Positions 45,687-59,696 of a DNA stretch of 64,000 nt are shown piece after piece. The position numbers and the translations under genes are program-made. Every line of letters starts with the position of its first letter. Position 1 is the stretch's first letter. The notes beneath the pieces were generated by a model, which was given only the letters and a program-made list of their open reading frames with translations, had not been told where the DNA came from and ran no database searches. This DNA is from a virus: IMG/VR virus record IMGVR_UViG_3300037258_000161, positions 1 through 64,000 of that record; one strand, given 5' to 3'.

Positions 45687-45733
45687 GCTTTGTCACCGCC
45701 TTCCCGCTCGCCGGTCCGGGCAGCGGGAAAGCC

Positions 45734-46536
45734 TCACTCCAGCGCCGGTATCTCCAGTCCCCCCTCGGCCGCCCTCTTCCGCAGGCGCGGATCCAGGCGC
45801 AGCCTGTCTTTCATGCTGAGCCGCTTCCTCCTCGGCCTGGCGCCGGGGCGCTGCACCGGGTCAGGAGGCGACCCGGCTGCATTGCCGCCGGCGCTCGCTG
45901 CCACGGTGGTCCACCGCAGCAGCCGCACCTCGTCCACGAGCAGGGCCAGAAGCATCTCCGGGGAAGACCAGCGGCCGGCGTCCGGATCAACCGGCTCCAC
46001 TGGTGCCGCGTCCGGGTCATCCTGCGCGGCGTTGCGGAGCCCGGTCAGCGTCAGGGACTCCGGAGGGAGCGCGTCGATCAGTACGAGGAGCTTGCGCAGG
46101 CTGAGCTTGCCGCGGTAGTGATCAAGCAGGTCCAGCCCGTAGTAACGGTGCAGGTCGGCCTCTAGCGCCTCGTGGTGCTCCTTGAGGAACGCGAGCGCCG
46201 AGAGGGTTTTCCCGGCGTGATACCACTGGCAGAGGACACGACCTCGATGATCCGCTCAAGCTGGTAGTTCCGGACCTTCGCCGCGGTGAACGCCTTGAAG
46301 TCCTTGTCGCTCAGGACGCGCTGCGCCCACGCGATCGAGTTTCCGTTCCCGAGGAACACGCTGGCCTCGTGCGGCCAGTCCTTCTGATGCGGGAAGGTGA
46401 CGACCTTCCCGCCGATGCGGACGCTCGTGGGCTCGCCGACCGCCTCACGGCGCAGGGCGTCATCTTCGGCGTCCAGGTCGAGGTCAACAACGTCAGCCTC
46501 TTCAGCGTCCCGTTCCGGGGCGTCTGCGGCGGTCAT
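45734..46536 (-). CDS. tail assembly chaperone, -1 frameshift extension (gpGT-like)
   Basis: GGGAAAA slippery site at 46207-46213; -1 frame reads ...EALEADLHRYYGLDLLD...LIDALPPES. Confidence 0.85.
46162..46536 (-). CDS. tail assembly chaperone (gpG-like)
   Basis: Between major tail and tape measure genes; ...TPGK at the slippery site. Confidence 0.85.
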   Translation of the reverse strand: MTAADAPERDAEEADVVDLDLDAEDDALRREAVGEPTSVRIGGKVVTFPHQKDWPHEASVFLGNGNSIAWAQRVLSDKDFKAFTAAKVRNYQLERIIEVVSSASGITPGKPSRRSRSSRSTTRR

Positions 46537-46618
46537 TCAGGGTCCTCTCTGGCGCTCCCATTCCGGCAGCGCGGACGGCAGGAAACGGCCCGGTACATTC
46601 CGCACCGGGCCGCACTGG

Positions 46619-47224
46619 TTACGCGAAGAACGGCGTCAGATCAGCGGCGCCGTAGTCGATGTAGCGCTGGATCGCCGCCCTGGTGGACCCGATCATGTCG
46701 GGGTACAGGGTGATGGTCAGCTGGATGGTCTCGGCGTCGGTCTGCTGCTGCTGGTCGTTGCCGCGGCTGGTCACCTTGGCGTTGACAGCGAAGTTCCGCA
46801 TCGCCTTGTCGCCGTCGATGGTGTCGAACAGGAAGCAGTACCTGTTGTCGGTGGGGATCTCGGGCATCAGGTACGTGGCCACGGTGGTGCCGGTCGCAGG
46901 CTGCAGCTGGTCGAGCAGCACATCGTCGTACAGCGCCCTGACGGCGGGGTTCAGGCCCTCCATGAAGGTGACGTCGAACGTCTTAGGGGCTGCGGACGTG
47001 ATGGTGCGGATCGGGTCCAGTGTGCCGGCCGCCATCACATCCTTGATGGTCTCGGCCAGCTTGAAGGTGGCACCCGTGGTGTCCACCCAGCCCAGGCAGA
47101 TCCACGGCGATGTCACCGCAGCGAAGCCCGCGGGCGGCGTAGTACCCAGGTCGGCGTAGTACGCCATGACATCACCTGCGGCATATGTGAGGTCAGCTGA
47201 CCTAGTGTCCGTAATGAGACTCAC
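46619..47224 (-). CDS. major tail protein
   Basis: LGWVDTTG, FDVTFME, QLTITLYP; position. Confidence 0.85.
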   Translation of the reverse strand: MSLITDTRSADLTYAAGDVMAYYADLGTTPPAGFAAVTSPWICLGWVDTTGATFKLAETIKDVMAAGTLDPIRTITSAAPKTFDVTFMEGLNPAVRALYDDVLLDQLQPATGTTVATYLMPEIPTDNRYCFLFDTIDGDKAMRNFAVNAKVTSRGNDQQQQTDAETIQLTITLYPDMIGSTRAAIQRYIDYGAADLTPFFA

Positions 47225-47235
47225 CCTCTATCTAG

Positions 47236-47934
47236 TCAGGTTTCCTCACCGCCCGTCCCATTAGGCGATGTGGGGGCGGATTTGGGTTCGGTAGTGACTG
47301 CCGGCCAGACGACCTGCGCTCTTGCGGTCAGGACGTTCTTCCGGTACGTCGGGTCCTGCCACTGGGCCTTCCGGGTCGCACTGAGTTTCGCTAGCGCCTC
47401 CGCAGAGTGCGTTCGGCCTATGTGAGCTTCCGAGCGGTTCTTACGGCCCTCTTCGGAGCGCTGCCCTGCCAGGATGGCGGCACGTTTCTCCTTGTCAGCC
47501 CACATAGCGCGACCGTTCGCGGACATCGTGGCCAGCAGTTCCGGGCTCTTCTCGCGACCGCGGTTAGCCGCCCCGATCTTGGCCCGCGTCTCGGCGGACA
47601 CCACGCGCCCGCGGTGTGCCGCGCTGAGCTTGGCCCGCGTCTCAGGGGAGATCGAGCCCTTGATGCGCTCATTGAGCAGTGCGCCGCGGGTGAGTTTGCG
47701 CAGGGCGATGATGCATGCCCGCTCCACCTTGTTGGCCTCTTCGCCGTCCTCGACGATGGCGATGATCCGGAAGGCTGGCGGAGCATCCAGCGTCCGCAGC
47801 CACTGGTGCAGCTTGTTGTTCCTGCGGGTGCGGTCGTTCCAGTGCTGGCGCTGCCTGCCTTTACCGCTCACGGACTGCCCGATGTACCTGATCTCACCCG
47901 CGTCGCCGAGTACGGCGTAGATGTCTGTAGCCAT
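47236..47934 (-). CDS. GIY-YIG homing endonuclease with NUMOD3 repeats
   Basis: IYAV...RYIGQS..R..QH...E...I...LLN; SPETRAKLSAAHRG repeats. Confidence 0.88.
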   Translation of the reverse strand: MATDIYAVLGDAGEIRYIGQSVSGKGRQRQHWNDRTRRNNKLHQWLRTLDAPPAFRIIAIVEDGEEANKVERACIIALRKLTRGALLNERIKGSISPETRAKLSAAHRGRVVSAETRAKIGAANRGREKSPELLATMSANGRAMWADKEKRAAILAGQRSEEGRKNRSEAHIGRTHSAEALAKLSATRKAQWQDPTYRKNVLTARAQVVWPAVTTEPKSAPTSPNGTGGEET

Positions 47935-47943
47935 GCGGTCTAT

Positions 47944-47961
47944 TGTACATCCATGTACATG
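47944..47961. promoter_or_regulatory. tandem TGTACA palindromes between divergent -10 boxes
   Basis: TGTACA (47944-49) and CATGTACATG (47952-61); TACAAT on minus, TAGCAT on plus. Confidence 0.65.
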
Positions 47962-47977
47962 AGCTAGCATGGATGTC

Positions 47978-48169
47978 ATGAGCGAGTCTTCAGAGAAAGG
48001 CGTCGCCGAGTTGCGGCTTGAACTGGCCGACGTCCTCAATGCCGCCGCCGTGCGCGGCGAGATAACCTACGTCACCAACCGCGGGAGGCGCATGGCCGCC
48101 GTCGTCCCCATTCCCGTCGCTGAGGCGGCCGAAGCGGCGGCCAAGTCGAGGACTGATCGGCAGAGATGA
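47978..48169 (+). CDS. Phd/YefM-family antitoxin-like DNA-binding protein
   Basis: GVAELRLELADVLNAAAVRGEITYVTNRGRRMAAVVP. Confidence 0.85.
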   Translation: MSESSEKGVAELRLELADVLNAAAVRGEITYVTNRGRRMAAVVPIPVAEAAEAAAKSRTDRQR

Positions 48170-48624
48170 CTACCGATAAGGCCGTTGACGTCTGGCTGAT
48201 CGCCTTCCTGTCCGCCCGGCTGGACGAGGACGAGCTGGCCGCGCGGAACGCGGGCGGGGAGACATGGGACTTCACGGGCCCGGACTGCAAGGTACGCGTC
48301 CGCGAGCCTGACGGCGACCTCGGGCGCATCATCGCCTACTGCCGGCACGGCGAGCCACTGAACGAAGATCTGGCGCTCGCAATCCATATCGGCCACAACG
48401 ACCCAGCCCGCACGCTCCGCGAGATCGAGATCGAGATCGAGATCAGGCGGGCGAGGCTGAGGCGGTACCTGGAACAGCCCAGCTGGCACCTGCCCGAGGG
48501 TGTCCGCGACACCGACGAGCGCCAGCGCGCCCAGATAGTGAAAGACGTACTGGACGGCGAGGTCCGGGAGGACGCCGCCGTCTACAGCGACCATCCGGAC
48601 TACCGGCAGGAGTGGAAACCATGA
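48166..48624 (+). CDS. DUF6221-like protein
   Basis: FLSARLDEDE, HNDPARTLRE, YSDHPDYRQEW. Confidence 0.8.
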   Translation: MTTDKAVDVWLIAFLSARLDEDELAARNAGGETWDFTGPDCKVRVREPDGDLGRIIAYCRHGEPLNEDLALAIHIGHNDPARTLREIEIEIEIRRARLRRYLEQPSWHLPEGVRDTDERQRAQIVKDVLDGEVREDAAVYSDHPDYRQEWKP

Positions 48625-48824
48625 CCGGCCAGATCCTGGTCATCCTGGGGATTGCGATTGCCGTGTTCGTAACGGTCATCCTGGGTGCGTTCTTGTATGC
48701 GGCGCTCAAGGGGGCCACATTCCGTGAGGCGTGGCACCTCTGGTGGGAAGCTGTGGACCGCGAATACAAGGAGCACCCGACGTGGATTGCCCGGTGGCGC
48801 AGGCGCCGGCGAGCGCCTAAGTGA
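48621..48824 (+). CDS. small membrane protein
   Basis: ATGA-coupled; N-terminal TM; Arg-rich tail. Confidence 0.65.
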   Translation: MTGQILVILGIAIAVFVTVILGAFLYAALKGATFREAWHLWWEAVDREYKEHPTWIARWRRRRRAPK

Positions 48825-48833
48825 CGTGCCCTG

Positions 48834-49265
48834 TCAGGGCCGGGCGTGGATCTCGTAGCTCGCGCCGTAACGCGACATGTCCTGGTTCTCGTCGGGGATC
48901 CACCGCGGCCCGACTACCACCGTGACCGTCTGGACCGTCCCCTCCGGCAGGCTCACCCCCCGCAGCTGCCACAGCAGGAGGCATTCGCAGGCCTGCGCGA
49001 TGGCGTACGCCGCATCCCGGTCGAACGAGTACACGTCCAGGTCCACGATCGGGCGGTCCACGAAATAGCTCCGCGTCGCACCGGACACGCGGCTGATCCG
49101 GGTCCACGCACCGGACGCGCCAGGGGGGATGTACGGCAGGTCGGTGCAGAGCCTCACCGGGGCGAGCACGGCGTTCTGCCCGAGCCCCTGCTGCCCGGTG
49201 AGCCAGTTGAGCAGCAACACCTCGATGTCAGGGAACGGCTTCGGGCTGAACCTCGGCAGCGGCAC
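48834..49265 (-). CDS. tail terminator
   Basis: FPDIE..L, RISRVSG, DRPIVDLDVY, RYGASYEI. Confidence 0.8.
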   Translation of the reverse strand: MPLPRFSPKPFPDIEVLLLNWLTGQQGLGQNAVLAPVRLCTDLPYIPPGASGAWTRISRVSGATRSYFVDRPIVDLDVYSFDRDAAYAIAQACECLLLWQLRGVSLPEGTVQTVTVVVGPRWIPDENQDMSRYGASYEIHARP

Positions 49266-49266
49266 G

Positions 49267-49605
49267 TCAGTCGCCGGCCGCGCTCATCAGCGCGTTGAGC
49301 ATCGTGTGGTGAGCCAGCTGGCGGTGCGTGCCGTACTCGACCCAGCGGGCTTCGGGGGCTGAGTTCGAGATGATTGCTGCCGCCCTGTCCCCTTTCCAGC
49401 CGCCAGCGCTGGTGATCGTCATAGAGAAGGAGTCCTTGTACCGGCCGCGGTGCGGATCTTCCCAGTCGCCGTGATAGACGGGGGCCGTGGCGATGCACTG
49501 CGCCAGGACGTTCGCGCCGCGGCGTCCCATCTCGGCCTGCAGGAAGTCCGAGCGGAGCATGGCACCGATTCCGGCATAGCTGCCCTGGTAGGTGCTGCCG
49601 CCCAT
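49267..49605 (-). CDS. neck protein (HK97 gp10-like)
   Basis: APV...GRYKDS, ARWVEYGT. Confidence 0.75.
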   Translation of the reverse strand: MGGSTYQGSYAGIGAMLRSDFLQAEMGRRGANVLAQCIATAPVYHGDWEDPHRGRYKDSFSMTITSAGGWKGDRAAAIISNSAPEARWVEYGTHRQLAHHTMLNALMSAAGD

Positions 49606-49614
49606 TGGTGCCCC

Positions 49615-49986
49615 CTAACCCGCCTCGGTAGACATGTGGGCCGTGGCGCCCGTGACGCGCTTCAGGTGGACGAAGACCGGGCCGACGAGGCCGGTAAAGG
49701 GCGACGTCCAGGTGCCACCCTCGCCAGTAATCTCGAACGTTTCGCCGTTCTCGCGGATGATCCGGTCCTGCGGCGCGACCGGTGTTCCCCGGGGCAGGTA
49801 CATCTGGCCACCAGCCGTGACCTGCTCAGTGCCGATCGCGGCTTCGGCCTCGGTACCGGGCTCCCATGCGACGGGGCCGACCGTAGAGTCGGTGAAGGTG
49901 ATGATGTCGTTGCCGCGAGCGCTCCGGCCGGTTATGGCCGCCCTTTGGTACGTGACGTACTCACCTGGACCGCCGGGATCCAGCAT
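49615..49986 (-). CDS. head-to-tail stopper
   Basis: YLPRG...DRI...GETFEI.GE...W.SPFTG...V.LKRVTG. Confidence 0.8.
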   Translation of the reverse strand: MLDPGGPGEYVTYQRAAITGRSARGNDIITFTDSTVGPVAWEPGTEAEAAIGTEQVTAGGQMYLPRGTPVAPQDRIIRENGETFEITGEGGTWTSPFTGLVGPVFVHLKRVTGATAHMSTEAG

Positions 49987-50007
49987 CGGCTACCTCCCGC
50001 GCTCCGG

Positions 50008-50343
50008 TCAGGCCACGTGCTTCCAGGTCACCCGGTTGACGACGTCGTGCACGGTCGGCTGCTTTACGCCATAGGCGGCACCGAGGGTCTGCTGGGAGAC
50101 GCCGCCTGCGTCCCATCTGCGGCGTATCTCTCTCACTTTGTCCTCGTTCAATTTGGCGCAGCAGTGCTCGTTGCCCTTGGCTGGGTGAAGTGAGCCATGG
50201 CGCAGCGAGTCCTGCACGTTCTCGCTGTGAGTGCCGAACTCAAGGTTGGACGCAGCACAGTCGGTCTTGATGCCGTTCTTGTGCCGGCGGACCAGACCGG
50301 GCGGCAGAGGTCCGAGGAAAGCGGCCAGGTCGTATCCGCGCAT
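50008..50343 (-). CDS. HNH homing endonuclease with HTH (probably N-terminally truncated)
   Basis: AFLGP...RHKNG...NLEFGTHSENVQD; AKLNEDKVREIR...TWKHV. Confidence 0.75.
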   Translation of the reverse strand: MRGYDLAAFLGPLPPGLVRRHKNGIKTDCAASNLEFGTHSENVQDSLRHGSLHPAKGNEHCCAKLNEDKVREIRRRWDAGGVSQQTLGAAYGVKQPTVHDVVNRVTWKHVA

Positions 50344-50987
50344 TAGCGCAGGCGCGTCATGATCGTGCCAGTCGTGAGCCGGTAGTCCTTCAGTGCCGCG
50401 AGGTCAGCCTGAGTCAGGGCGACCGCCACGCCACCGCCAGACCGCTCCAAACGGTACGAATACGCCCCTAATGTTTCCCCGATCACGCCCGCCGCAAGAG
50501 TCGGCGCCGCGAGTACTGACAGCACTGCATTCGCGCAGACCATCACCACGTCGTCGGGTACCTCGGGGTAACCGTAGTTCCGGCAGACCTTGAAGGTCTG
50601 GGGGTACAAATCGGAATCCCAGTACACATAGGGCAGGTTGATGATGAAGTCGGTCCCCACGTCCAACCGGATGCGGTCGATCCCGTCGAAGATGAACCAG
50701 GTGATCGGGATGTCCGGCAAATCAATGCCGCCGCCGAAGTCGCTCCCGATCGCGGTCACGGAGATGACCTCGGTCGTGGTCTTGTCCGGCAGCAGGATCT
50801 CGGAGTCGTGGCCGCGGAAGATGCCCGTCTCATCCGCGTGCAGCAGGAAGTCCCGCCGGCAGTAGCGGCGGATCTGCGCCGAGGCGTCGGCCAGGAGCGC
50901 CGGGGCACGCGTGGCCTCAGCCTCGGTCAGGTCGCGCCCCAGCCGCGCGGCGACGTCATCCGGCTGGGCGAGAGGGGGCGGGCTCAT
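50343..50987 (-). CDS. head-to-tail adaptor
   Basis: LA.PDDVAARLGRDL, LLADASAQIR, GY.EVPDDV, ETLGAYSY. Confidence 0.85.
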   Translation of the reverse strand: MSPPPLAQPDDVAARLGRDLTEAEATRAPALLADASAQIRRYCRRDFLLHADETGIFRGHDSEILLPDKTTTEVISVTAIGSDFGGGIDLPDIPITWFIFDGIDRIRLDVGTDFIINLPYVYWDSDLYPQTFKVCRNYGYPEVPDDVVMVCANAVLSVLAAPTLAAGVIGETLGAYSYRLERSGGGVAVALTQADLAALKDYRLTTGTIMTRLR

Positions 50988-51035
50988 CGGCTACCCCTTC
51001 CTGCCGTCACCGGATGACGTCGCCGCGGTCAGGTG

Positions 51036-51389
51036 CTAGTGGGTGCGGATGCGGCCGGTCACCCAGAGGGTGATCTTCGCCGTGGTCCCCTGCAGGCCAC
51101 TGAGGAAGTCGCCGGGCTGCATGACGATGCCGAGTGTGCCGAGGGTTGAGGCCAGCGATGACGAGGACACCGCCGCCACGGACAGGGCGGCGGCCACGCG
51201 GTGCGTGACCCCGGCGGTACCCCCCGAGGGCACGACGTCCAGCGTGTAGCCGTACGCGGTGCTCCCGTCGTTGTTGCAGGCCACCACGTTGTCGAGGATC
51301 CAGTCCTCGCCGGCCGGAACGGTGGCGAGGGTGGTCGCCGAGGTAGTCGGCTGTCCCTTGTAGAAGTTGGCGTTCTGGAGCGGTCCCAT
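51036..51389 (-). CDS. virion protein (possible capsid decoration)
   Basis: Directly after MCP; beta-sandwich pattern; AGGAG SD. Confidence 0.6.
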   Translation of the reverse strand: MGPLQNANFYKGQPTTSATTLATVPAGEDWILDNVVACNNDGSTAYGYTLDVVPSGGTAGVTHRVAAALSVAAVSSSSLASTLGTLGIVMQPGDFLSGLQGTTAKITLWVTGRIRTH

Positions 51390-51440
51390 GCGTCTTCTCC
51401 TGTTCCTGGTTCGTGTCTTCGTGTTGCCCGGGAACCGGCG

Positions 51441-52442
51441 TCAGACGGCGCTCGCGATGGCACCGAAGGGCCAGCGCTGCTGGGTCCCCCCCGCTCCGTC
51501 GATCGTCTCGGTCGGCTGCATGATGGTGACCGGGTTCGCGGTGGCATAGGCCATGCGGAAGGTCAGCTTCATGGCCACGGCGTTCTGCTGGAGGAGGTTG
51601 AGGACGACCTGCCCGGAGTCGTTGCTGATGACGCCCACATCGGTCATCTGGAACGAGATGTCCTGCCGCAGCCCGATCACAGCCTTGGTCCAGTCGCCGC
51701 ACAGCACCTGGGCCTTGGCGCCTTGCCACGAGCCGTTCTTGACCTCCGTCATCGTGTAGCCGTACAGAAGCGAGTTCCCCGTCGCCTTGCCGTTCTGCAT
51801 GTCGGGGGCATAGATCGGGACACCCTGTTCCGACCGCAGTCCCTTCAGCCGCCATCCCAGGCCGGGACGCGCGGCGAAGCCGTCCACCGTGTAGCCGGTC
51901 TGGGACATTGCGTCCCCGAGGGCCGCGATGGACTGCCCGAAGTCGTCCGCCGACTCGGTCCCGGCGGAATCCAGGTAACCATCCTGGACGACGTTCCCGG
52001 CCGCTACCGCACCGTCGTAGATCGCCTGTCCCCATGTGGTGGGCTTGGCGACATTCCAGAAAACAGCCGAGTCGATCAGTGCGCCGAGCGCCTCCACCAT
52101 CCGCGGCTGGACCTGCGCCCAGACATCCACATCGGCGTCATCGAGATACGCCTTCGGAACGGGGATGATCGTGGCGAGTTCCTCCACGACCAGCTGGACG
52201 CCCTTCCATGCCTGCGCCGCCGTCTGCACGAGGCCCGTGTCGCCTCCGACGAAGTAGGCGACCGGCAGCATGTCCAGCACGGGGATGCGCTGGGTCTTGG
52301 AGGACAGCGGCATGTGCGCCATCAGGCCCAGGGCCGCGCTCGAAGTCGGGAGTTCCTGGAAGATCTCGTTGCTCAGCGGCTCCGGCACGAGTGCGTCGGA
52401 ACCGCTGGAGCGCGAGATGAGGTCGTTATAGACACCCGTCAT
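51441..52442 (-). CDS. major capsid protein (HK97 fold)
   Basis: LVPEPLSNEI, EELATIIPVP, GDW, IGLRQDI, NLLQQN.VA...R. Confidence 0.92.
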   Translation of the reverse strand: MTGVYNDLISRSSGSDALVPEPLSNEIFQELPTSSAALGLMAHMPLSSKTQRIPVLDMLPVAYFVGGDTGLVQTAAQAWKGVQLVVEELATIIPVPKAYLDDADVDVWAQVQPRMVEALGALIDSAVFWNVAKPTTWGQAIYDGAVAAGNVVQDGYLDSAGTESADDFGQSIAALGDAMSQTGYTVDGFAARPGLGWRLKGLRSEQGVPIYAPDMQNGKATGNSLLYGYTMTEVKNGSWQGAKAQVLCGDWTKAVIGLRQDISFQMTDVGVISNDSGQVVLNLLQQNAVAMKLTFRMAYATANPVTIMQPTETIDGAGGTQQRWPFGAIASAV

Positions 52443-52495
52443 CGGGCTTACCGCCTTTCACTGTGGGGCAGCCCGGCATGGCGGTGCTGCTGGAA

Positions 52496-53194
52496 TTACC
52501 TGGAACGGAGGTCTTCGTACTGGTTGCGGATCCACTCGCCGCCAGTCCGCGGCGCGTCACGGCCCGCAGGGGACGCCCCGGCGCGCATGGCTTCTACGGG
52601 CCGGCGCCCGCGGGCTGCCGCCGCCGTTCCCGCGGCAGTGGCTGAGGTGCCGTTCGCGCCAGCCGCCGCCTGGGCCGTGGCGAGCTGGGCCGCCACCTGG
52701 TCGGCGACACGGTTGTTGATCTCGGCGGCGATGGCCTCCGCATTCGCGTTGATCTCGTCCTCGGTCGCACCGCTGAGCGTGTCGATCAGCCCGGGAGGGA
52801 GTCCGTACGTGGCCGCCGCGAGGGTGCGGTGATAGCGGCCCTCCGCGTCAGCCGCGCGCTGCTCAGCCGCGGCCCGGGCGTCGGTCTCACGCTGGAGCTC
52901 GGTCTTCTGGGCGTCCTCGATCGCGGCGAGCTTCCTGGCTGCCTCGCCGCCCGCCTGGACCTGGTTTCTGTACCTGTTCGCCGCCGTCTCGTTCTTGCGG
53001 GACAGGTCCCGCCACTTCTTTGCCTCAGCCTGCGCCGCGGCGAGCGGGTCACCCTCGGTGCCGTCATCGCCGCCGGTGAGAGCGTCGGCGAGCATCTCCG
53101 CCGGGTCACCCCCGGCGTCAGCGGCCGGGGCTGCGGGTGCGGTGGCGTCAGCGGTTCCGGTGCCTTCCGCCCCGGCTCCTGCGTCTTCGGACAT
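52496..53194 (-). CDS. scaffolding protein
   Basis: KWRDLSRKNE, EDAQKTELQR, GATEDEI..NA; upstream of MCP. Confidence 0.85.
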   Translation of the reverse strand: MSEDAGAGAEGTGTADATAPAAPAADAGGDPAEMLADALTGGDDGTEGDPLAAAQAEAKKWRDLSRKNETAANRYRNQVQAGGEAARKLAAIEDAQKTELQRETDARAAAEQRAADAEGRYHRTLAAATYGLPPGLIDTLSGATEDEINANAEAIAAEINNRVADQVAAQLATAQAAAGANGTSATAAGTAAAARGRRPVEAMRAGASPAGRDAPRTGGEWIRNQYEDLRSR

Positions 53195-53220
53195 GCGGAT
53201 GCCTCCCATTCCGGGAAATG

Positions 53221-53251
53221 AAAAAGCCCTCCGCCATTCCGGCTGAGAGCT
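53221..53251 (-). terminator. hairpin + U-tract upstream of the scaffold gene
   Basis: AGCTCTC...GAGGGCT TTTT on minus; loop contains a GGAAU hairpin. Confidence 0.45.
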
Positions 53252-53273
53252 CCGTGGTGCCGCGCGAGCGCGG

Positions 53274-53645
53274 TTACTTGCGGGTGGGGCCGTCCGCCTT
53301 GAGGCTGCCGTCAGGTGCCCAGGTCGGGGGAATACGGGAAGAGAGACCCAGCTGTTTCGCGCGCATCATGACGAATCTCCGGACCGCCGCGCGTGCCTCG
53401 TCGGTAGCAGGCTTGATGCGGCCGATCGCCTTGATGGCGTTGTCCAGGTCAGCGGCGTTCTGAATGTTGAACCGGGGGCGCCCACCGGGCTTCGCTGGAG
53501 GCAGCGCCTTCCGCTGCTTCTGGAGCTTCCGCATGGTCGCGACGTCGGGTGTGGCCATGGGCCGCTTCCTTCCTGGCGAGAGGGGTTCGGGGACGAGGGG
53601 GTCACTGCCACTCGAGCGGGAGATGGCTGAGCCATAGGAAGCCAC
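53274..53645 (-). CDS. small head-associated protein (DUF6582-like) with MCP-like N-terminal peptide
   Basis: FNIQNAADLDNAIKAIGR...R.F...RAKQLG...IP.TW; GGGAGG SD before GTG 53645; alternative ATG at 53559. Confidence 0.75.
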   Translation of the reverse strand: MASYGSAISRSSGSDPLVPEPLSPGRKRPMATPDVATMRKLQKQRKALPPAKPGGRPRFNIQNAADLDNAIKAIGRIKPATDEARAAVRRFVMMRAKQLGLSSRIPPTWAPDGSLKADGPTRK

Positions 53646-53760
53646 GGGACCTCCCGTCGCTACGCTGGGAGCATGGCCAAGGTTCACCTGCAGGTCCGGG
53701 CCGCTGGACCGGGTCGCGCACGGAAGCTCGCCCGGTACATGACCCGGTGGGAGGGCGGTA

Positions 53761-54567
53761 CTACGCGACCCGAGGTGCCCCTACCGCGTCAGGGTGAGCC
53801 TTATCCCAGTACCGCCGCCATGCCCGCACTGCATCCGGTCCAGAGAAACCTCTGGTGACCCGCCTCCATTGCCGGTACAGGTCGTTGTCGCGGAGGGCCT
53901 TGGCGTCTTCCCTGCTAAAGGCTGCTGCGGCGCTGCAACGGCAACGCGAATGCGCCTTAAATCCTGCGGTCTGGGCGGTTTTGTACACTGCGCCACGTCC
54001 CGCTAGAAGGGCGCACCACGCGCATGGATCCGCCGCCGTAACGCGGTACCAGGCGACCGCTGCCGAGTCCTGCTGGACGGCCTGCAGGACCGCTGTGCGG
54101 GCCCCGTTCTGGATCAGCCGGGTAGCCGCCGACGCCATCACGTTCCCGGTCGCCTGCGCCGCCTGCGGGACGGGCTGCCCGGCCTTGATGCGCTTCAGCA
54201 GCGAGTACGGGCCGGTCGAGTCCAGCGTGGCCGTGACGAGTTCCGGGGGAGGCGGAGGGGGCACGCTCAGCAGCGGGGGAAGCGTGACCACCCCGGCTGC
54301 TGAGCGGGCCTGCTGATAGTACGCGTTCCCCGCCTGCCCCATCGCCTGTGACTGGGTCCCGATGACCGCGGTGATGGACGTGCGCACCTGGGGCCATGAC
54401 GAGATCACGTTCCGCAGGTCAAGCAGTCCCCACAGGCTGGTGATCTGCGAGAGAAGCCATGCCACCTGCCACGCCTGCTGCTGCCTGGAAGATTCGGCGA
54501 TCTGGGCCTGCGCCGCACGGGACGCGGTCGGCTGCGTGAGCGGCACCGGCCCGGCGTAGAGGCTCAC
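53761..54567 (-). CDS. MuF-like / capsid morphogenesis minor protein
   Basis: GARTAV, WYRV...PCAWCALLAGRG.VY, HSRCRC. Confidence 0.8.
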   Translation of the reverse strand: MSLYAGPVPLTQPTASRAAQAQIAESSRQQQAWQVAWLLSQITSLWGLLDLRNVISSWPQVRTSITAVIGTQSQAMGQAGNAYYQQARSAAGVVTLPPLLSVPPPPPPELVTATLDSTGPYSLLKRIKAGQPVPQAAQATGNVMASAATRLIQNGARTAVLQAVQQDSAAVAWYRVTAADPCAWCALLAGRGAVYKTAQTAGFKAHSRCRCSAAAAFSREDAKALRDNDLYRQWRRVTRGFSGPDAVRAWRRYWDKAHPDAVGAPRVA

Positions 54568-56177
54568 ACGCCGTGGGTCCGTTTCAATGCTGGCCCCTGG
54601 AAGGGATCGTCATCACCCGGAGGTGCCTGCTGGGCGCCCTGGGTCATCTGCGACTCGATCAGCTGATCCAGTTCCGCCAGCGCACCCTGCTTCGACGCTG
54701 CGGCCTTCCAGCGGGCCACATCATCGGCACTCGTCCCCGGCACCCGCTGCCACAGTTCCGTCGCGGGCACGCCGAGCATCTGGGTGAGTTTCCCGAGGGC
54801 GTCCACGGTGCCGGCGAACGCCCGGCCGCCCGTGTCGCGCCAGACGATCACCGCGGCGTCGTCATTCCACCCGGCCAGGTCGCCGGCTGCTTTCGACGCG
54901 AGCTGGAAGGTCTGCTTGTGGGGCTCGTTCAGGACACCCTGGGCCTCTTCCACTCTGCGGTCGAGCGCGTCGCGACTCGCAGTCAGGGCGTCTGCGGACA
55001 GATTTACCATCTGCCCCAAAAGATAATAAGGCGGCAACTGCGTGATGGTGCTCATGTGCACGATCGTGGCCTCGGCCGACTTGAGAAACCCCGTGAGATC
55101 CGTTTGCGCGAATTCACCGAATTTCGTGTCGGAATCCTCAGCCGTAAAGAGGCGGTCAACACCAGCCCGGAACGGCTCCTTCGGGTTCCCGTCCTCGTCA
55201 GACACAACCATCCCCGTGACCCACCGCTGCCTGAAAGCCCCGTACTGCTGGGCCATCAGGGCATTGAAGGTCGTGGTGTTCAGCTGGTCCTGCAGCGGGA
55301 TCAGCGGCTCCACGATCCCGGAGACGTCCATCTCGCCGTCAAGGTCAATCTGGTGCAGGTAGCGAACGACGGGGCACACCCCGAGCCCATGCTCGCTGAC
55401 CGCCTGTGTTCCGTTGAGCAGGACCGGGTCGTCGTCCTGCGGCCAGAACAGGCCCTCAGTGTCGGCCTTCCCGGTCAGCGTGTAGACCTTCTGGTCGTCA
55501 TACAGCCGCACGATCCGCCGCGCCCCGCCGGGCGCGTTGACGACGGTCTCCTCGACTGCGTAGGCAGGCCATTCGTCGTCAACGTCATCGGCGTACAGGG
55601 CGGTGAGGCGCCGCGGCGACACCGGCCGGATCACCGGATACGGCTCCCCGGGCAGCACCACTGTGTAGGCGAGCCCGTACTCGATCACCGAGCGGTGCAG
55701 GCCGTGCTGACGGCCTCCCATCCGGTTGGCCTGCCAGATCCGCCACGGCCCGTCATCTTCCTGCGGGGACTGGGCCTCTGCATGCGCGGCCTTCGCCTGG
55801 GCGAGAATCCCCGCCGCCCCAGCGGTATCACCGGCCTGCAGGGCGTCGTGAGCGCCCGCCAGGGCCACCGACACGTCATCGACCACATCCGCCGCCGCGC
55901 TCGGCCGGTAGCCGTCCACGTGCAGGTTCTGGCTAATCGTGGACACCACCAGCGGCAGGAAGTTCACCACCGACCGGTGCAGCAGCCAGCGGTACTCCTC
56001 CCGCGCGCCCCGCGGCACGTACACCGAGTCGTGGCGCCCGCGCATGTACTTGGAGATCCGCTTCAGGCGCCGCTGCTCGTGACCGCGGATGGCGAGGATC
56101 TTCTGCGCAAGCTGCGGGATGTCCTGGCTGTTTGCTGCGGAGGGAGCGTCGGCCTGCGCGAGCGTCATGACGGTCAC
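54564..56177 (-). CDS. portal protein (SPP1 gp6-like)
   Basis: VNFLPLVV, VDGYR, IWQAN, HGLGVCPVV, GAFRQRW.TG, NLSADAL. Confidence 0.92.
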   Translation of the reverse strand: MTVMTLAQADAPSAANSQDIPQLAQKILAIRGHEQRRLKRISKYMRGRHDSVYVPRGAREEYRWLLHRSVVNFLPLVVSTISQNLHVDGYRPSAAADVVDDVSVALAGAHDALQAGDTAGAAGILAQAKAAHAEAQSPQEDDGPWRIWQANRMGGRQHGLHRSVIEYGLAYTVVLPGEPYPVIRPVSPRRLTALYADDVDDEWPAYAVEETVVNAPGGARRIVRLYDDQKVYTLTGKADTEGLFWPQDDDPVLLNGTQAVSEHGLGVCPVVRYLHQIDLDGEMDVSGIVEPLIPLQDQLNTTTFNALMAQQYGAFRQRWVTGMVVSDEDGNPKEPFRAGVDRLFTAEDSDTKFGEFAQTDLTGFLKSAEATIVHMSTITQLPPYYLLGQMVNLSADALTASRDALDRRVEEAQGVLNEPHKQTFQLASKAAGDLAGWNDDAAVIVWRDTGGRAFAGTVDALGKLTQMLGVPATELWQRVPGTSADDVARWKAAASKQGALAELDQLIESQMTQGAQQAPPGDDDPFQGPALKRTHGV

Positions 56178-56223
56178 GCTCGGCCACCGCCCCCCGCGTT
56201 GCCAGCGTCTCTAGGCTGGATGG

Positions 56224-56601
56224 ATGGCAGACGATGAATACGCAGCCCAGACGGCCTTCCTGCGGGCACGCCTGGACGAGGACGAGGTGTGGGCACGCGA
56301 GGCTGTGCCGCGACCATGGCTCACCCAGGACAACTTCATCGAGTCGCCCGATGGCGGCGAGGTGGCCCGGTTCAACATGAAGGCGGACGCCAGGCTCGCC
56401 GCCCAATACGACCCGGCCCGGGTGCTCCGCGAGGTTGAGGCCAAGCGGAGGATCCTGGATCAGCTGGGGACCGACCTGTCATACCGGCCGCCTGTCCCGG
56501 TGGGCCACCGACGCGCGTGGGCTATCGCGTCGCTGATCGCGGAAGCTATGGCCGGTCCCTACAGCGACCACCCGGACTACCGGCGGGAGCGGAAGCCCTA
56601 G
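56224..56601 (+). CDS. DUF6221-like protein (antisense moron)
   Basis: FLRARLDEDE, DPARVLREVEAKRRI, YSDHPDYR; TAGGCT -10 six nt before ATG. Confidence 0.8.
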   Translation: MADDEYAAQTAFLRARLDEDEVWAREAVPRPWLTQDNFIESPDGGEVARFNMKADARLAAQYDPARVLREVEAKRRILDQLGTDLSYRPPVPVGHRRAWAIASLIAEAMAGPYSDHPDYRRERKP

Positions 56602-58280
56602 CTGAACCCGTAGACCTTCCCCGAACGGGGCTTCTTCTCCGCTGGCTTGCCGGCCAGGTACAGCCGCCGCACCATCCGGGCGCCGATCACGCACACCGCG
56701 GCGTCGATCTTCTTCGGCGAGTCCCTGGTCTCCTTCGCGACCGACACGCCCCACCTATTCGGGTGCCGCCGCGCGTTCCCCACATGCCGGGCAACCCGCG
56801 AGTCACCGTCGTGGGTGAACGCCCGGTCCTCGATCTCCTGCAGGGTGAGCTCGCACGCCATCGTGAAGTCATAGACCCGGGTCCGCATATCCCACGCGAC
56901 CGGCTGCGGATCCTTCCCGCCCGGCACCGCGTGGAGCTTCAGCTGGTCGCCGTAGCGCTTCGGCCACTCGACCTTGGTGAACGACTCCCACTCACGGACG
57001 TCCGCGAAGAACGCAACGACGTTCCAGTGCTCGAAGGAGTGCTCCACGGCCGCGTCGACCTGTGCGACGGGAACCGGCTGGGCCTCCACGCCGGCACGTG
57101 CAGGCGCCGGCTCCCAGACCTCTATGCAGAAGACGTGGCCGGTCTCGACATGGCAGCCGAGGAGCGCGGTCGCGTCATTGGTGCGCGAGCCGTCGAAGAA
57201 CATGACGATCTCGTCGCCATCAGGGACTGGCACCGAGGGGTCGGAGATGGCCGCCCACTCCTGCGGCGTGACCCAACTCGTCAGTGACGCGACCGGCTGG
57301 TTCAGGTAGAACCGCCTGGCAACGTCCGGGGCGGTCCGCAGCGACAGGATGCGGTCCATGATCGTCTGCTGGTCAACCCAGAAGCAGTCGTGATACGCCG
57401 CTGCGATCCCGGTCCGCAGGGAATCGTCGTCGGTCAGGTCCGTGTCCGGCGGGGCAACGTACGCGTCGTAGAGAATCTTCGCCCGCGACCGGGTGAGCCC
57501 TTCCTCCTGGGCCACCCACGCGTCCCACGTAGCCTCGGCCACCGAGCCCGCGCCAGGCTCCCACGCGTTGCACGTCTCCACGCCACGGCTGCCCGACTTC
57601 GCCATGTTGCGGTCCATCACCGCAGCGAGCTCAGAACCGCCGTTCGCAGGGCGCCACAGTTCGGTCTCGTCAAGCAGCCCGAACGTCGTCAGCGCGCCCT
57701 CAGCGGCGGACGCCGATGAGGTGATGATCTCTAGCTGGCCGCCGTTCTCGCTGTACGTGACCGTCTTCCCCGGGTCGAGCCCGAAGTCGCGCACGAGCCG
57801 CGAGCTCTTGGGCATCATCGCCCGGACCATGCGGTTTGTGTTCGCGGTCTGGGACTCTGACGTGGCCGCGATCTGCACCAGCGGCATGTCCACGGGCTTG
57901 CCGCGGACACCGCCCCACGTCCGGGGGTCGTCAGGGTCGCGTTCGCAGAAGTGGGAGAAGCGCACGGGCCCGCAGAGTTCCGTGATGCAGTGCGCGCCGG
58001 CCCCGGGCGACTTCCCGGCACCTTTGCTGAGCCTGCGCACCCCATGCTGGTACAGCCATCGCGTGGTGATCTCCTCCAGCGAGTACCACCACAAGATCCA
58101 GTGGCGCTGCGACGGCGTGTACTCCCACGGCAGCCCCGCTCGCGGGCCGTTCGGGTGCCTCAGGTACTTCGCCGCGAAGAAGATTGCCTCGTAGCCCAGC
58201 GTGAACTCAGGCTCGCCTGGAGGAAGCGTTACCAGCCGGTCGAGCGGGCCCGGTAGCTCAGTTGGCCTCGCGCTTGCCAC
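56598..58280 (-). CDS. terminase large subunit
   Basis: Walker A KGAGKS, Walker B LLDE, RRFYLNQ, nuclease FDGS..ND...KIDAAV. Confidence 0.95.
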   Translation of the reverse strand: MASARPTELPGPLDRLVTLPPGEPEFTLGYEAIFFAAKYLRHPNGPRAGLPWEYTPSQRHWILWWYSLEEITTRWLYQHGVRRLSKGAGKSPGAGAHCITELCGPVRFSHFCERDPDDPRTWGGVRGKPVDMPLVQIAATSESQTANTNRMVRAMMPKSSRLVRDFGLDPGKTVTYSENGGQLEIITSSASAAEGALTTFGLLDETELWRPANGGSELAAVMDRNMAKSGSRGVETCNAWEPGAGSVAEATWDAWVAQEEGLTRSRAKILYDAYVAPPDTDLTDDDSLRTGIAAAYHDCFWVDQQTIMDRILSLRTAPDVARRFYLNQPVASLTSWVTPQEWAAISDPSVPVPDGDEIVMFFDGSRTNDATALLGCHVETGHVFCIEVWEPAPARAGVEAQPVPVAQVDAAVEHSFEHWNVVAFFADVREWESFTKVEWPKRYGDQLKLHAVPGGKDPQPVAWDMRTRVYDFTMACELTLQEIEDRAFTHDGDSRVARHVGNARRHPNRWGVSVAKETRDSPKKIDAAVCVIGARMVRRLYLAGKPAEKKPRSGKVYGFS

Positions 58281-58704
58281 GCCACGCCGCCATGCTCGCC
58301 ACGGCCGCCGCTTCGTCCGGGTCCTCGGGCTTATCGCGCTCCAGTTCCAGCCGCAGGCGACGCCTGTCGCCCTCGGTCATCAGCAGCCGGGCCATCAGCG
58401 CGTCCCAGGCCGCGAACATCACCGCCGACGGGCGGCCAGAGTTCAGCTGCTGCGACATGACCTCCGAGCCGATCCGCAGCATGTTCCAGTCGGTCGGCTC
58501 CCAGAACGCGCTCTGCCCCGACCGCCCAGCGGACTCGTACAGGTCTCGGATCAGCGGATGCCACGCAGGGTCGGGCTCGGGCACGCCAGGCCCGGAGGAT
58601 GCCCCACGGCTGCCTGCTGGTGCCTTCGTGACGGGCCCTGCTGGATCCTTGTTCGTCCTCCGGCGCTGGTCTGTGCGCTTCGGGACCGGGCCGCGGCTAC
58701 CCAC
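58258..58704 (-). CDS. terminase small subunit
   Basis: GSRGPVPKR, WHP, SGQ..FW.PTDW, LLMTEGDRRR. Confidence 0.88.
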   Translation of the reverse strand: MGSRGPVPKRTDQRRRTNKDPAGPVTKAPAGSRGASSGPGVPEPDPAWHPLIRDLYESAGRSGQSAFWEPTDWNMLRIGSEVMSQQLNSGRPSAVMFAAWDALMARLLMTEGDRRRLRLELERDKPEDPDEAAAVASMAAWRGKREAN

Positions 58705-58799
58705 GGTGGACAACCTTCATCGACTGCTCCCATTCCGGGTACGGCCCATTCCGGGCTACTGCCAGGGATGGCCCGCATTCCGCAGGGAGCCCTAGCCGA

Positions 58800-59696
58800 T
58801 CAGGAGCGGCTTCGGAGCGCCGCCTCGTTGTTCTTCCTGCTGTTACAGGAGTAGTGGGCGCACTGAGCGTTCGCCGGCTCATGGAACCCGCGTGGCTCTC
58901 CCTCGCGGGGCCGCAGCGGGACGATGTGGTCGATCGTCGGTGAGAGGAGGTCCGGCCAGACGGCGCCCCGGCTGACGGGCTTCCCGCAGAGCTGGCAGAT
59001 CCAGCCGTCGCGCTCAAAGATCTCCAACGGCTCAACAGGTGCCCGGAACGCAGCCGCCTCCACGGCCCGGCGTACATGCGAGGCGATCCGGCCGTAGCAG
59101 CGCTGCGAGCACGTCCTGGTCTTCGGGTCAATACTCACAAACCATGTACCGCAGCACGAGCAGCGACCTGAATACCACTGCTGGCGCAGGCGTGGCAGCC
59201 TCGGGCTGGCTGCCTTGAGCCGCGCTAGTAGACGTGGATGCAGCCATCCTTCGGGGCGTTCCCAGAGGACTACCTGCGAGCGGGCTGCGCGCACGGCGTC
59301 ATAGTCGCAACTCACGGAGCGGCCGGAGCGGCAGCTATCCGAGCAGTAGAACGAAGTTGGAGCGGGTGCCTGCCACAAATCGCCGCAGCTTTGGCATATC
59401 AGCGTCCATTTGCGCGTCTTATTGTGGCAACTATTTGAGCAGAACCAGGTACGGGGCTCGGAGTTCGTCCATTTCTTGCCGCAGTTCTCGCACGTGTGCT
59501 CGTAGCGGTATTGGGATCTCCACGTCTTCCCGGTGCGCTTGGCGTAGCTGCGGAAATACTCTCTCGCCCGATCATTATTGCGCCGCCGTTTACATTCAGG
59601 CGCAGAGCATGTTTTCCACCTCTCCTGCGCCGTCTCGGTGCCGCAGTACTCGCAGGCACCCCGGACGGGCGCAGGGACTGGCACGAGGATCCTCAT
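58800..59696 (-). CDS. HNH endonuclease with N-terminal Cys repeats
   Basis: ERDGWICQLCG, TIDHIVP, H..AN...AHYSCNSRK; TAAGCT -10 six nt before ATG. Confidence 0.88.
   Translation of the reverse strand: MRILVPVPAPVRGACEYCGTETAQERWKTCSAPECKRRRNNDRAREYFRSYAKRTGKTWRSQYRYEHTCENCGKKWTNSEPRTWFCSNSCHNKTRKWTLICQSCGDLWQAPAPTSFYCSDSCRSGRSVSCDYDAVRAARSQVVLWERPEGWLHPRLLARLKAASPRLPRLRQQWYSGRCSCCGTWFVSIDPKTRTCSQRCYGRIASHVRRAVEAAAFRAPVEPLEIFERDGWICQLCGKPVSRGAVWPDLLSPTIDHIVPLRPREGEPRGFHEPANAQCAHYSCNSRKNNEAALRSRS

What the first reader, a model, noticed from the sequence alone, without database searches (positions are those of the whole stretch)
46555..58786. Seven C-GGAAU-G pentaloop hairpins clustered in three late-gene leaders
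Seen on the minus (mRNA) strand: GGAAT loops closed by C-G with differing stems. Three lie before terS (loops 58777-81, 58748-52, 58732-36), two before the scaffold gene (53236-40, 53208-12) and two before the tail chaperone (46597-601, 46560-64; the latter has a weak stem). The 53208 hairpin buries the scaffold SD GGGAGG. A constant loop with variable stems is the signature of an RNA-binding-protein operator. Known: CsrA-type proteins bind looped GGA; phage scaffold genes are often translationally autoregulated. Inference: a post-transcriptional regulon setting assembly-factor stoichiometry.
Basis: partly seen in the sequence, partly recalled or inferred. Interest (0 to 1): 0.7.

Follow-up and report, generated by a model that had tools for sequence, protein, structure and literature searches.

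The report
Paired hairpin leaders before phage head genes
A soil actinophage and its relatives place the same small pair of RNA hairpins, one of which hides the ribosome-binding site, in front of their DNA-packaging and capsid-scaffold genes, which points to a shared and so far undescribed control of when these proteins are made.

Summary
All seven C-GGAAT-G copies lie on the late-mRNA strand in three short leaders: HNH/terS, DUF6582-like orf/scaffold, and major tail/chaperone. CCGGAATGG occurs 5 times in the whole 108-kb record, only there. Every copy caps a hairpin of 3-12 pairs.

Relatives make it more than a curiosity. In 11 related phage contigs, the last hairpin of the terS and scaffold leaders reads YCCC-loop-GGGAG, so its 3' arm is the Shine-Dalgarno sequence. 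One or more upstream hairpins carry the same cap on unrelated, covarying stems.

The conserved cap is G-N-A-A-Y, not GGAAU. GGAA and GCAC variants also occur, and caps can differ within one genome.

It matches no Rfam family. The phage encodes no CsrA or ANTAR domain. The ~100-kb relatives share little beyond the head module.

Best reading (about 0.4): a two-hairpin RNA operator that masks the ribosome site under an unknown RNA-binding factor. A purely cis-acting device is nearly as likely.

The CsrA and "stoichiometry" ideas are not supported. Two word look-ups in the scan's earlier notes found no mention of this motif on other DNA.

The parts
58772..58786 (-). H1, first upstream hairpin of the terS leader (CCUGC / GCGGG, cap GGAAU 58777-58781)
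   Evidence: Read. It has 5 pairs including one U.G, and -6.0 kcal/mol.
58744..58756 (-). H2, second upstream hairpin of the terS leader (GCCC / GGGC, cap 58748-58752)
   Evidence: -6.8 kcal/mol.
58727..58739 (-). H3, start-proximal element CCC-GGAAU-GGGAG; GGGAG (58727-58731) is the Shine-Dalgarno sequence of the short upstream ORF
   Evidence: It scores 24.4 bits with model R1 and aligns with 19 relatives' elements.
58697..58720 (-). 7-codon upstream ORF (MKVVHRG, stop TAG) that runs over the terS start codon
   Evidence: Read. G002 has the same geometry (MNVEDDG, stop).
58258..58704 (-). terS (small terminase; its only PHROG match, phrog_226, is labelled 'minor tail protein'). The real start is GTG 58704.
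   Evidence: Its only PHROG match is phrog_226, labelled 'minor tail protein' (3.9e-35), so 'small terminase' is my reading from its position next to terL and its recalled P27-type N-terminus. Homologues begin M-G-x-R-G-P-V-P-K.
53221..53253 (-). H4, terminator-like hairpin after the DUF6582-like orf (12 pairs, cap 53236-53240) with its U-run 53221-53225
   Evidence: Orthologous hairpins in 8 relatives have 6 pairs with compensatory changes, and the TTT after the stem is invariant in 8 of 8.
53202..53218 (-). H5, start-proximal hairpin UUUCCC-GGAAU-GGGAGG that pairs the whole scaffold Shine-Dalgarno sequence; ATG at 53192-53194
   Evidence: 25.0 bits with R1; the proximal helix is invariant in 8 of 8 scaffold leaders.
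52496..53194 (-). Scaffold gene
   Evidence: phrog_1793 head scaffolding protein, 3.1e-18.
46585..46613 (-). H6, 12-pair hairpin directly after the major tail gene stop (cap 46597-46601), followed by GUUUCC
   Evidence: -24.9 kcal/mol.
46552..46572 (-). H7, GCGCUGCC-GGAAU-GGGAGCGC (cap 46560-46564). Its GGGAG lies 18 nt before the chaperone ATG at 46534-46536, which has its own GAGAGGA.
   Evidence: 20.3 bits with R1. The relative with the closest tail genes (G008) has no such leader.
46162..46536 (-).
   Evidence: ORF list; position between the major tail gene and the 1342-aa ORF.
58800..59696 (-). HNH endonuclease ORF whose stop bounds the terS leader
   Evidence: PF01844, 1.7e-05.
53274..53687 (-). 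DUF6582-like small ORF whose stop bounds the scaffold leader
   Evidence: No Pfam or PHROG match. The Atlas's nearest clusters carry PF20223. Homologues were found in G002, G003, G006, G008 and G009.
46619..47224 (-). Major tail protein gene whose stop bounds the chaperone leader
   Evidence: phrog_476, 1.7e-21.

Best explanation
**What it is.** The seven copies belong to a modular leader cassette of the phage's late mRNAs.
- The last hairpin of each leader (consensus Y-CCC-G-N-A-A-Y-GGG-A-G) pairs the Shine-Dalgarno sequence GGGAG with an upstream (U)UCCC.
- One or two stronger hairpins, 16-61 nt upstream, carry the same cap on otherwise free stems.

**How I think it works.** An RNA-binding factor recognises the caps and clamps the start-proximal hairpin, with help from the upstream hairpin(s). 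This holds the ribosome-binding site closed and co-regulates translation of the first genes of the packaging block (terS) and the shell block (scaffold). At the scaffold and tail leaders the upstream hairpin doubles as a transcription terminator or 3'-end stabiliser.

**Shown**
- The motif, its strand and its placement.
- Its hairpin context.
- Its conservation with covarying stems in relatives.
- The Shine-Dalgarno sequence lying inside the 3' arm.
- The cap being restricted to these leaders.

**Inferred**
- That a trans-acting factor exists.
- That it represses rather than activates.
- That it acts on translation.
For: 1. **Placement.** 7 of 16 CGGAATG and 5 of 5 CCGGAATGG in 108 kb lie in three leaders on the mRNA strand. 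Random placement never gave this in 20,000 trials.
2. **Conservation across diverged phages.**
   - 9 of 9 terS leaders with terS at least 46% identical carry CCC-(GNAAY or GCAC)-GGG(A)G just before the start. 8 of those 9 have at least one further copy upstream.
   - 8 of 8 scaffold leaders compared carry the proximal element. 6 of those 8 have a GNAAY cap on the U-run hairpin, and a seventh has one on a hairpin further upstream.
   - An unbiased scan for CCC-N3-7-GGG upstream of these genes returned only these caps in that clade.
3. **RNA structure.**
   - RNAalifold recovers both hairpins. 6 of the 9 distal pairs show compensatory double changes.
   - 40 hairpins from 20 leaders of 11 contigs hold 30 G.U pairs against 3 A.C mismatches. 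The sense-strand stem is longer than the antisense one in 17 cases, shorter in 6 and equal in 17.
4. **Cap specificity.**
   - Stems vary freely, but G1, A3 and A4 are invariant in the 20 aligned proximal elements.
   - The roughly 343 other hairpins predicted after gene ends in three ~100-kb genomes use other loops.
   - A covariance model of the proximal element finds nothing else above noise in 464,577 nt. This includes the motif-less relative G010, whose best hit is 15.6 bits, E 0.86.
5. **Precedent.** Dual stem-loops that overlap the ribosome-binding site are an established mode of translational repression in Actinobacteria (passages of PMC8164766).
Against: - No candidate binding protein was found.
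  - There is no CsrA or ANTAR domain in the record.
  - The three ~100-kb phages that carry the cassette share only the head module, a tail gene, DUF6221, a 552-aa gene and one small ORF at tblastn E below 1e-5.
  - The co-occurring DUF6582-like gene is missing in G007, which has the GCAC variant.
- The cap tolerates one-base variants: GGAA in the terS leaders of G003 and L077, and GCAC in G007. A structural role explains this more easily than a fixed protein contact.
- The proximal helix never varies, so it gives no covariation support.
- The whole-leader folds are only modestly better than shuffles, and the terS leader's minimum-free-energy fold differs from three separate hairpins.
- No expression data exist for this phage.
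Confidence: 0.4

Rival explanations
1. **A purely cis-acting device with no dedicated factor.**
- The proximal hairpin gives the ribosome site a defined, weak local fold in a 68% G+C mRNA. In three cases it feeds a short upstream ORF that passes ribosomes to the real start.
- The upstream hairpins are terminators, 3'-end or 5'-end stabilisers, or insulators against the preceding coding sequence.
- The G-N-A-A(-Y) cap persists because it is a fast-folding GNRA-type cap inherited when the cassette was copied from leader to leader.
For: - Caps include a canonical GGAA tetraloop, and the second base varies freely, as in GNRA loops.
- H4 has a U-run that is invariant in 8 of 8 relatives.
- H6 directly follows the major tail gene.
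- Upstream-ORF coupling is seen in the window, in G002 and in the capsid leader of G009.
- No binding protein was found.
Against: - Other hairpins in the same genomes do not use this cap.
- The extra pyrimidine makes the cap unlike the standard extra-stable C(GNRA)G loops (recalled).
- terS-leader upstream hairpins have no U-run.
- The same cap is kept on both hairpins across phages whose terS proteins are only 43-57% identical and whose leaders are otherwise unalignable.
Confidence: 0.3
2. **boxB/N-like processive antitermination.** The hairpins are loading sites on the nascent late RNA for a phage or host protein that makes RNA polymerase read through the terminators inside the late region.
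For: - Short G+C-rich stems carry a purine-rich, GNRA-related five-base cap.
- There are several copies at the start of the late operon (terS leader) and again next to terminator-like hairpins H4 and H6.
- A conserved terminator sits in front of the highly needed scaffold and capsid genes, which calls for read-through.
Against: - The cap ends in a pyrimidine, whereas lambda-type boxB caps end in A (recalled).
- Two copies are the terminator's own loop rather than upstream of it.
- The best-conserved copy overlaps the Shine-Dalgarno sequence, which N-type sites do not need.
- No boxA-like element or N-like gene was identified. Neither was searched for systematically.
Confidence: 0.1
3. **DNA-level sites.** The 11-bp core CCCG-NAA-YGGG is bound as double-stranded DNA by a repressor, late activator or terminase subunit, like stoperators or start-associated sequences of mycobacteriophages.
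For: - The motif is asymmetric, always in one orientation relative to transcription, and lies in short intergenic spaces next to start codons. SAS elements and stoperators share these properties (passages of PMC3203893).
- Relatives G006 and G009 carry arrays of 8-14 CCGGAAC(A) direct repeats, not in hairpins, upstream of HNH/terS.
Against: - The flanks of the upstream copies form 7-12-pair stems of unrelated sequence, which a DNA site does not need.
- G.U pairs outnumber A.C mismatches 30 to 3, and stems are better on the sense strand.
- G006's arrays read GGAAC while its leader caps read GCAAC.
- This phage has no such array.
- An ECF-type -35 reading fails. No conserved -10 follows, and the proximal copy lies only 13-23 nt from the start codon.
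Confidence: 0.07

Closest known systems
ANTAR-target dual stem-loop RNAs of Actinobacteria (PMC8164766; passages read)
   Same: Two small tandem hairpins with conserved loops are separated by a short linker. [quoted passage not shown] The bound protein represses translation. The hosts are Actinobacteria.
   Different: ANTAR loops are hexanucleotides with A at position 1 and G at position 4. Here the caps are G-N-A-A-Y, or a triloop NAA on a G-Y pair. The linker can exceed 25 nt. No ANTAR domain is encoded in the phage, and Rfam gives no match.
CsrA/RsmA binding sites (recalled, not read here)
   Same: There are two sites, one in an upstream hairpin loop and one overlapping the Shine-Dalgarno sequence, a few tens of nt apart. 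This phage's cap contains GGA.
   Different: GGA is not conserved: relatives use GCAAC, GUAAC and GAAAC. No CsrA domain is encoded in the record. Whether the host has CsrA is unknown.
boxB hairpins bound by N proteins of lambdoid phages (recalled)
   Same: A short G+C-rich stem carries a five-base GNRA-related cap. The element is phage-borne, occurs in several copies per genome, and lies near terminators.
   Different: The cap ends in a pyrimidine. The copies lie in late, not early, transcripts. One copy is part of the ribosome-binding site and two are terminator loops. No N-like protein is known here.
Start-associated sequences (SAS/ESAS) of cluster K mycobacteriophages (PMC3203893 and PMC12699233; passages read)
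   Same: A short asymmetric repeat contains the Shine-Dalgarno core. It lies in one orientation a few bases before start codons of a subset of genes, sometimes with an extra upstream inverted repeat. The function is still untested.
   Different: The SAS is GGGATAGGAGCCC, which is absent from this window. It occurs in 11-19 copies in the non-structural arm. The authors found no support for ESAS repeats pairing as RNA. Here there are 7 copies in structural-gene leaders with clear stem covariation.
Stoperators of cluster A mycobacteriophages (mentioned in PMC3203893; details recalled)
   Same: Asymmetric intergenic sites, all oriented with transcription.
   Different: Stoperators are double-stranded repressor sites present in dozens of copies across both arms. 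Here the copies are few, clustered in pairs or triplets, and embedded in sense-strand hairpins.

Membership tests
CsrA/RsmA target sites | GGA in the loop of the hairpin and in or near the Shine-Dalgarno sequence | tested here: not met
   GGA is present in this phage (GGAAU). It is absent from the orthologous caps GCAAC, GUAAC and GAAAC in relatives.
CsrA/RsmA target sites | A CsrA-family protein is available | tested here: inconclusive
   No PF02599 match in the 108-kb record at E up to 10. The host genome is unknown.
ANTAR-target RNA | Two tandem stem-loops with a linker of 2-25 nt | tested here: inconclusive
   Two or three tandem hairpins are present. Loop-to-loop distances of 16-61 nt imply linkers that fit in some leaders and are too long in others.
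ANTAR-target RNA | Hexanucleotide loops with A1 and G4 | tested here: not met
   Caps are five bases, G-N-A-A-Y. No register gives A1/G4. There is no Rfam match at E up to 10.
ANTAR-target RNA | ANTAR-domain protein partner | tested here: inconclusive
   No PF03861 match in the record. The host is unknown.
lambda-type nut site (boxA + boxB) | boxB pentaloop of the form G-N-R-N-A that folds like GNRA | tested here: not met
   The fifth base is C or U in all 20 aligned proximal elements and in the upstream copies. The boxB consensus is recalled.
lambda-type nut site (boxA + boxB) | boxA element and an N-like arginine-rich protein | not tested
   Not searched for systematically.
Cluster K SAS/ESAS | 13-bp word GGGATAGGAGCCC with up to two deviations | tested here: not met
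   0 matches with up to 2 mismatches in the window.
Cluster K SAS/ESAS | A repeat that contains the Shine-Dalgarno core, 3-7 bp before start codons, in one orientation | tested here: met
   GGGAG lies 6-18 nt before a start codon in the three leaders, and all copies are on the mRNA strand. This is a likeness of kind only.
Intrinsic (rho-independent) terminator | G+C-rich hairpin directly followed by a U-run | tested here: met
   H4 only: 12 pairs followed by UUUUU, with TTT invariant in 8 of 8 relatives. H6 is followed by GUUUCC, which fits only partly. H1, H2, H3, H5 and H7 have no U-run. The simple scanner did not list H4 or H6.
Any Rfam 15 family | Covariance-model match | tested here: not met
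   None of the 10 matches at E up to 10 in 46000-59500 overlaps a leader.

The most novel reading that the evidence does not exclude
The hairpins are operators for a protein encoded in the head module itself. The first suspect is the small terminase, whose N-terminus is rich in Arg and Lys. The cassette and its binder would then form a self-contained feedback circuit that couples packaging and shell synthesis. This circuit would move as one unit when head modules are exchanged between otherwise unrelated ~100-kb actinophages. It would be a new class of phage RNA operator, defined by a G-N-A-A-Y cap.
Probability: 0.12. Interest if true: 0.75.

Novelty: new variant of a known kind. Interest (0 to 1): 0.5.

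Why it matters
Little is known about how tailed phages of Actinobacteria time and balance their late proteins. This cassette is short, sharply defined and conserved, which gives a concrete handle:
- It marks the two genes that open the packaging and shell programmes.
- It travels with the head module between mosaic genomes.
- It can be tested with simple reporters.

If a cap-binding factor exists, it would add a new RNA operator class beside boxB, CsrA and ANTAR targets. If none exists, the cassette is a natural example of a ribosome-site insulator with upstream-ORF coupling in high-G+C mRNAs, which is useful for expression design in Streptomyces.

Tried and rejected
**Searches that gave nothing useful**
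- Megablast of the late region against isolated phages found no match. Portal tblastn gives under 41% identity to Arthrobacter, Curtobacterium and Streptomyces phages, so no annotated close relative exists.
- Relatives of the major tail protein in viral contigs: none.
- The scan of genome contigs with a 14-mer of the proximal element returned 120 stretches. None encoded head genes (tblastn) and most looked coding. The word is too short for that collection, so the scan says nothing.
- Sequencing runs: no RNA holder was listed. Two soil DNA runs hold the stretch, and one may be the source.
- Rfam: no leader match.
- Two literature searches listed no paper on such a motif, judged from the listings only. 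Supplements are closed and were not seen.
- Earlier-notes look-ups gave context on the genome but nothing on this motif.

**Readings considered and rejected**
- ECF-sigma -35 box (GGAAC, GCAAC, GUAAC and GAAAC do resemble such boxes, from memory). Rejected because nothing like a -10 is conserved 16-18 nt downstream, copy spacing ranges from 16 to 61 nt, and the proximal copy is too close to the start codon.
- Pairing of an upstream cap with the UUCC anti-Shine-Dalgarno arm. Rejected because the capsid leader of G009 has UUCCC arms with GCAAC caps.
- The DUF6582-like orf as the binder. It co-occurs in 6 genomes but is absent from G007.
- 'Identical caps within a genome, different between genomes', my early reading. 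Withdrawn after G009 and L076 showed mixed caps.

**Analyses of limited use**
- A brute-force list of all 7-pair stems and my rough G+C-based gene caller were too noisy. The caller missed the scaffold and protease genes, so I used start-codon and homology anchors instead.
- The hairpin census rests on that caller and so missed H1-H5 of the window.

Full report
**Setting**

The window is the first 64 kb of a 108,411-bp virus record: 68% G+C, CheckV 92% complete, from soil. Earlier notes of this scan call it a temperate Streptomyces-type phage. I did not test that.

The late genes run on the minus strand:
- HNH endonuclease, 58800-59696.
- The ORF I read as terS. Its only PHROG match, phrog_226, is labelled 'minor tail protein', so that name is my inference from position and a recalled N-terminus.
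- terL, 56598-58280.
- Portal, 54564-56177.
- Protease, 53761-54567.
- A small orf, 53274-53687.
- Scaffold, 52496-53194.
- Major capsid, 51441-52442.
- Connector genes.
- Major tail, 46619-47224.
- Chaperone, 46162-46536.
- A 1342-aa ORF, read as the tape-measure gene by size and position, not tested.

Homologues of terS all begin M-G-x-R-G-P-V-P-K. The real terS start here is therefore GTG 58704, not the TTG 58713 of the ORF list.

**The observation**

- CGGAATG is not enriched overall: 11 in the window against 8.0 expected, and 16 in the record.
- Seven copies sit at the stated coordinates, all on the mRNA strand, in three gene-free leaders of 79-95 nt.
- CCGGAATGG occurs five times in 108 kb, only there. 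GGAATGGGAG occurs three times and is the last copy of each leader.
- I placed 16 sites at random and counted the three fullest 100-nt windows. They never held seven sites in 20,000 trials.
- Every copy caps a hairpin of 3 to 12 pairs.
- H5 pairs the whole scaffold Shine-Dalgarno sequence (UUUCCC/GGGAGG).
- H4 and H6 are the strong hairpins that directly follow the stop codons of the upstream genes. H4 is followed by UUUUU.
- Caveat: the minimum-free-energy fold of the whole terS leader is a different, longer-range structure. The leaders' z-scores are modest.

**Relatives**

No isolated phage is close. Searches of viral contigs with the scaffold, terS and portal proteins gave 20, 6 and 64 loci. 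I fetched larger parts of seven records.

*terS leaders.* In all 9 leaders whose TerS is at least 46% identical (window included), a CCC-loop-GGG(A)G element lies just before the start. 8 of the 9 have one or two more copies upstream.

*Scaffold leaders.* In all 8 leaders compared, the proximal element is present. It is preceded by a hairpin plus U-run. That hairpin's loop is G-N-A-A-Y in 6 of the 8. G006 has CCCA. G009 has another loop there, but carries a GUAAC hairpin further upstream.

*Unbiased scan.* A scan for CCC-N3-7-GGG in the 160 nt upstream of these genes returned only GGAAU, GGAAC, GCAAC, GAAAC, GUAAC or GCAC in this clade. Among the 21 loci with more distant terS it returned no such cap, apart from one GGAA.

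*Tetraloop variants.* Reading the sequences showed that G003 and L077 carry CCC-GGAA-GGGG before terS, which is a tetraloop variant.

*Caps can differ within one genome.* G009 uses GCAAC, GGAAC and GUAAC, and L076 uses GCAAC and GGAAC. My early idea of genome-specific loops was therefore wrong.

**RNA or DNA**

- RNAalifold on the eight scaffold leaders recovers both hairpins. 6 of the 9 distal pairs show compensatory double changes. The proximal helix (U-A, three C-G, G-Y) never varies. The first and last cap bases are drawn as a G-C or G.U pair around an NAA triloop.
- I tabulated 40 hairpins from 20 leaders of 11 contigs.
  - The upstream stems are 5-12 pairs of unrelated sequence.
  - G.U pairs number 30, against 3 A.C mismatches.
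  - The sense-strand stem is longer than its antisense image in 17 cases, shorter in 6 and equal in 17.
- This favours a structure selected in the sense transcript over a double-stranded protein site.

**Specificity**

- A covariance model of 20 proximal elements was searched over 464,577 nt: six cassette-bearing records plus G010. The 15 hits with E at or below 0.06 were 14 places the model was built from plus the upstream terS copy of G009.
- In the whole 108-kb record, only the three leaders score.
- G010 is a 93%-complete relative without the motif. Its best hit is 15.6 bits, E 0.86.
- About 343 hairpins were predicted within 90 nt after called gene ends in three ~100-kb genomes. Only known leader hairpins carried this cap (the gene calls were rough).
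- Rfam has no match in the leaders.

**Regulon**

- The conserved targets are terS and scaffold.
- G009 also has the proximal element before its HNH gene (a second cap-like copy upstream has only a weak stem), and a full pair before its capsid gene.
- G008 has the closest tail genes but no cassette between the major tail and chaperone genes. The third leader is therefore peculiar to this phage.
- In the window and in G002, the proximal Shine-Dalgarno sequence serves a 7-codon ORF whose stop overlaps the terS start. In the capsid leader of G009 it serves a 6-codon ORF.

**Who could read the cap**

- The record encodes no CsrA or ANTAR domain.
- Of 320 candidate ORFs of this phage, only 26 have tblastn matches in both other ~100-kb phages that carry the cassette. 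That count includes antisense shadows. They lie in 46.6-58.7 kb, or are DUF6221, a 552-aa gene at 90,597-92,255, or a 68-aa ORF.
- The cassette is thus part of the head module. Its reader must be a head-module protein, a host factor, or nobody.
- The DUF6582-like orf co-occurs with the cassette but is absent from G007.

**Verdict**

I take the cassette to be a post-transcriptional control element of a new sequence type. It most likely works like the dual stem-loop operators known from Actinobacteria (ANTAR targets; passages of PMC8164766), but it fails their defining loop features.

The factor-dependent reading (0.4) explains why the same cap is kept on two hairpins with free stems, and only here. 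The factor-free reading (0.3) explains the tolerated one-base cap variants and the absence of a candidate protein. Antitermination (0.1) and DNA-site (0.07) readings fit fewer facts.

The closest described phage feature of the same kind is the start-associated sequence of cluster K mycobacteriophages. It differs in sequence, genome arm and structure, and is itself still unexplained (passages of PMC3203893 and PMC12699233).

Noticed in passing
window 56224-56601 (+) and 48166-48624 (+): Two DUF6221 paralogues (35% identical to each other) lie antisense inside the late region: one between terL and portal, the other before the tail genes. G006 has a homologue in the same antisense terL-portal position (2653-2982), and G008 has one elsewhere.
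   Followed up: partly
window 47236-48039 (-), 58800-59696 (-), 62557-63426 (+): Three homing-endonuclease-like ORFs lie in or beside the late region: GIY-YIG/NUMOD3, HNH, and GIY-YIG.
   Followed up: no
outside the window, G000 85,917-85,999 (+) = L274:1917-1999: Three copies of the palindrome TCCGGAAACCGGA, spaced 31 nt apart, lie about 40 nt before a gene that starts at 86,034. They look like a triple operator rather than the leader cassette.
   Followed up: no
L068:10150-10750 (-) in G006 and L138:4700-4900 (-) in G009: Arrays of roughly 8-14 direct repeats CCGGAAC(A), not in hairpins, lie upstream of HNH/terS; in G006 they lie around a G-run. They may be terminase or other DNA-binding sites. 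The window's phage has no such array.
   Followed up: partly
whole record G000 versus G006 and G008: Three ~100-kb phages share only the head module, a tail gene, DUF6221, a 552-aa gene (90,597-92,255, which earlier notes call Ro60/TROVE) and one 68-aa ORF at tblastn E below 1e-5. This is extreme mosaicism around a conserved head module.
   Followed up: partly
window 45700-45733 (-): A 14-pair hairpin with loop CGGACC lies between the stop of the ORF at 45734-46255 (read as the chaperone's frameshift product) and the start of the 1342-aa ORF read as the tape-measure gene. Its top (CCCGGACCGG) resembles the cap minus one A.
   Followed up: no
window 53274-53687 (-): A small basic ORF before the scaffold leader has no Pfam or PHROG match, but its nearest Atlas clusters carry DUF6582. 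It is conserved at 54-78% identity in five relatives.
   Followed up: partly
window 58806-58823: Another hairpin (GCGGC...GCCGC) sits at the very end of the HNH gene, just upstream of H1. The scanner lists it as terminator-like on the plus strand.
   Followed up: no
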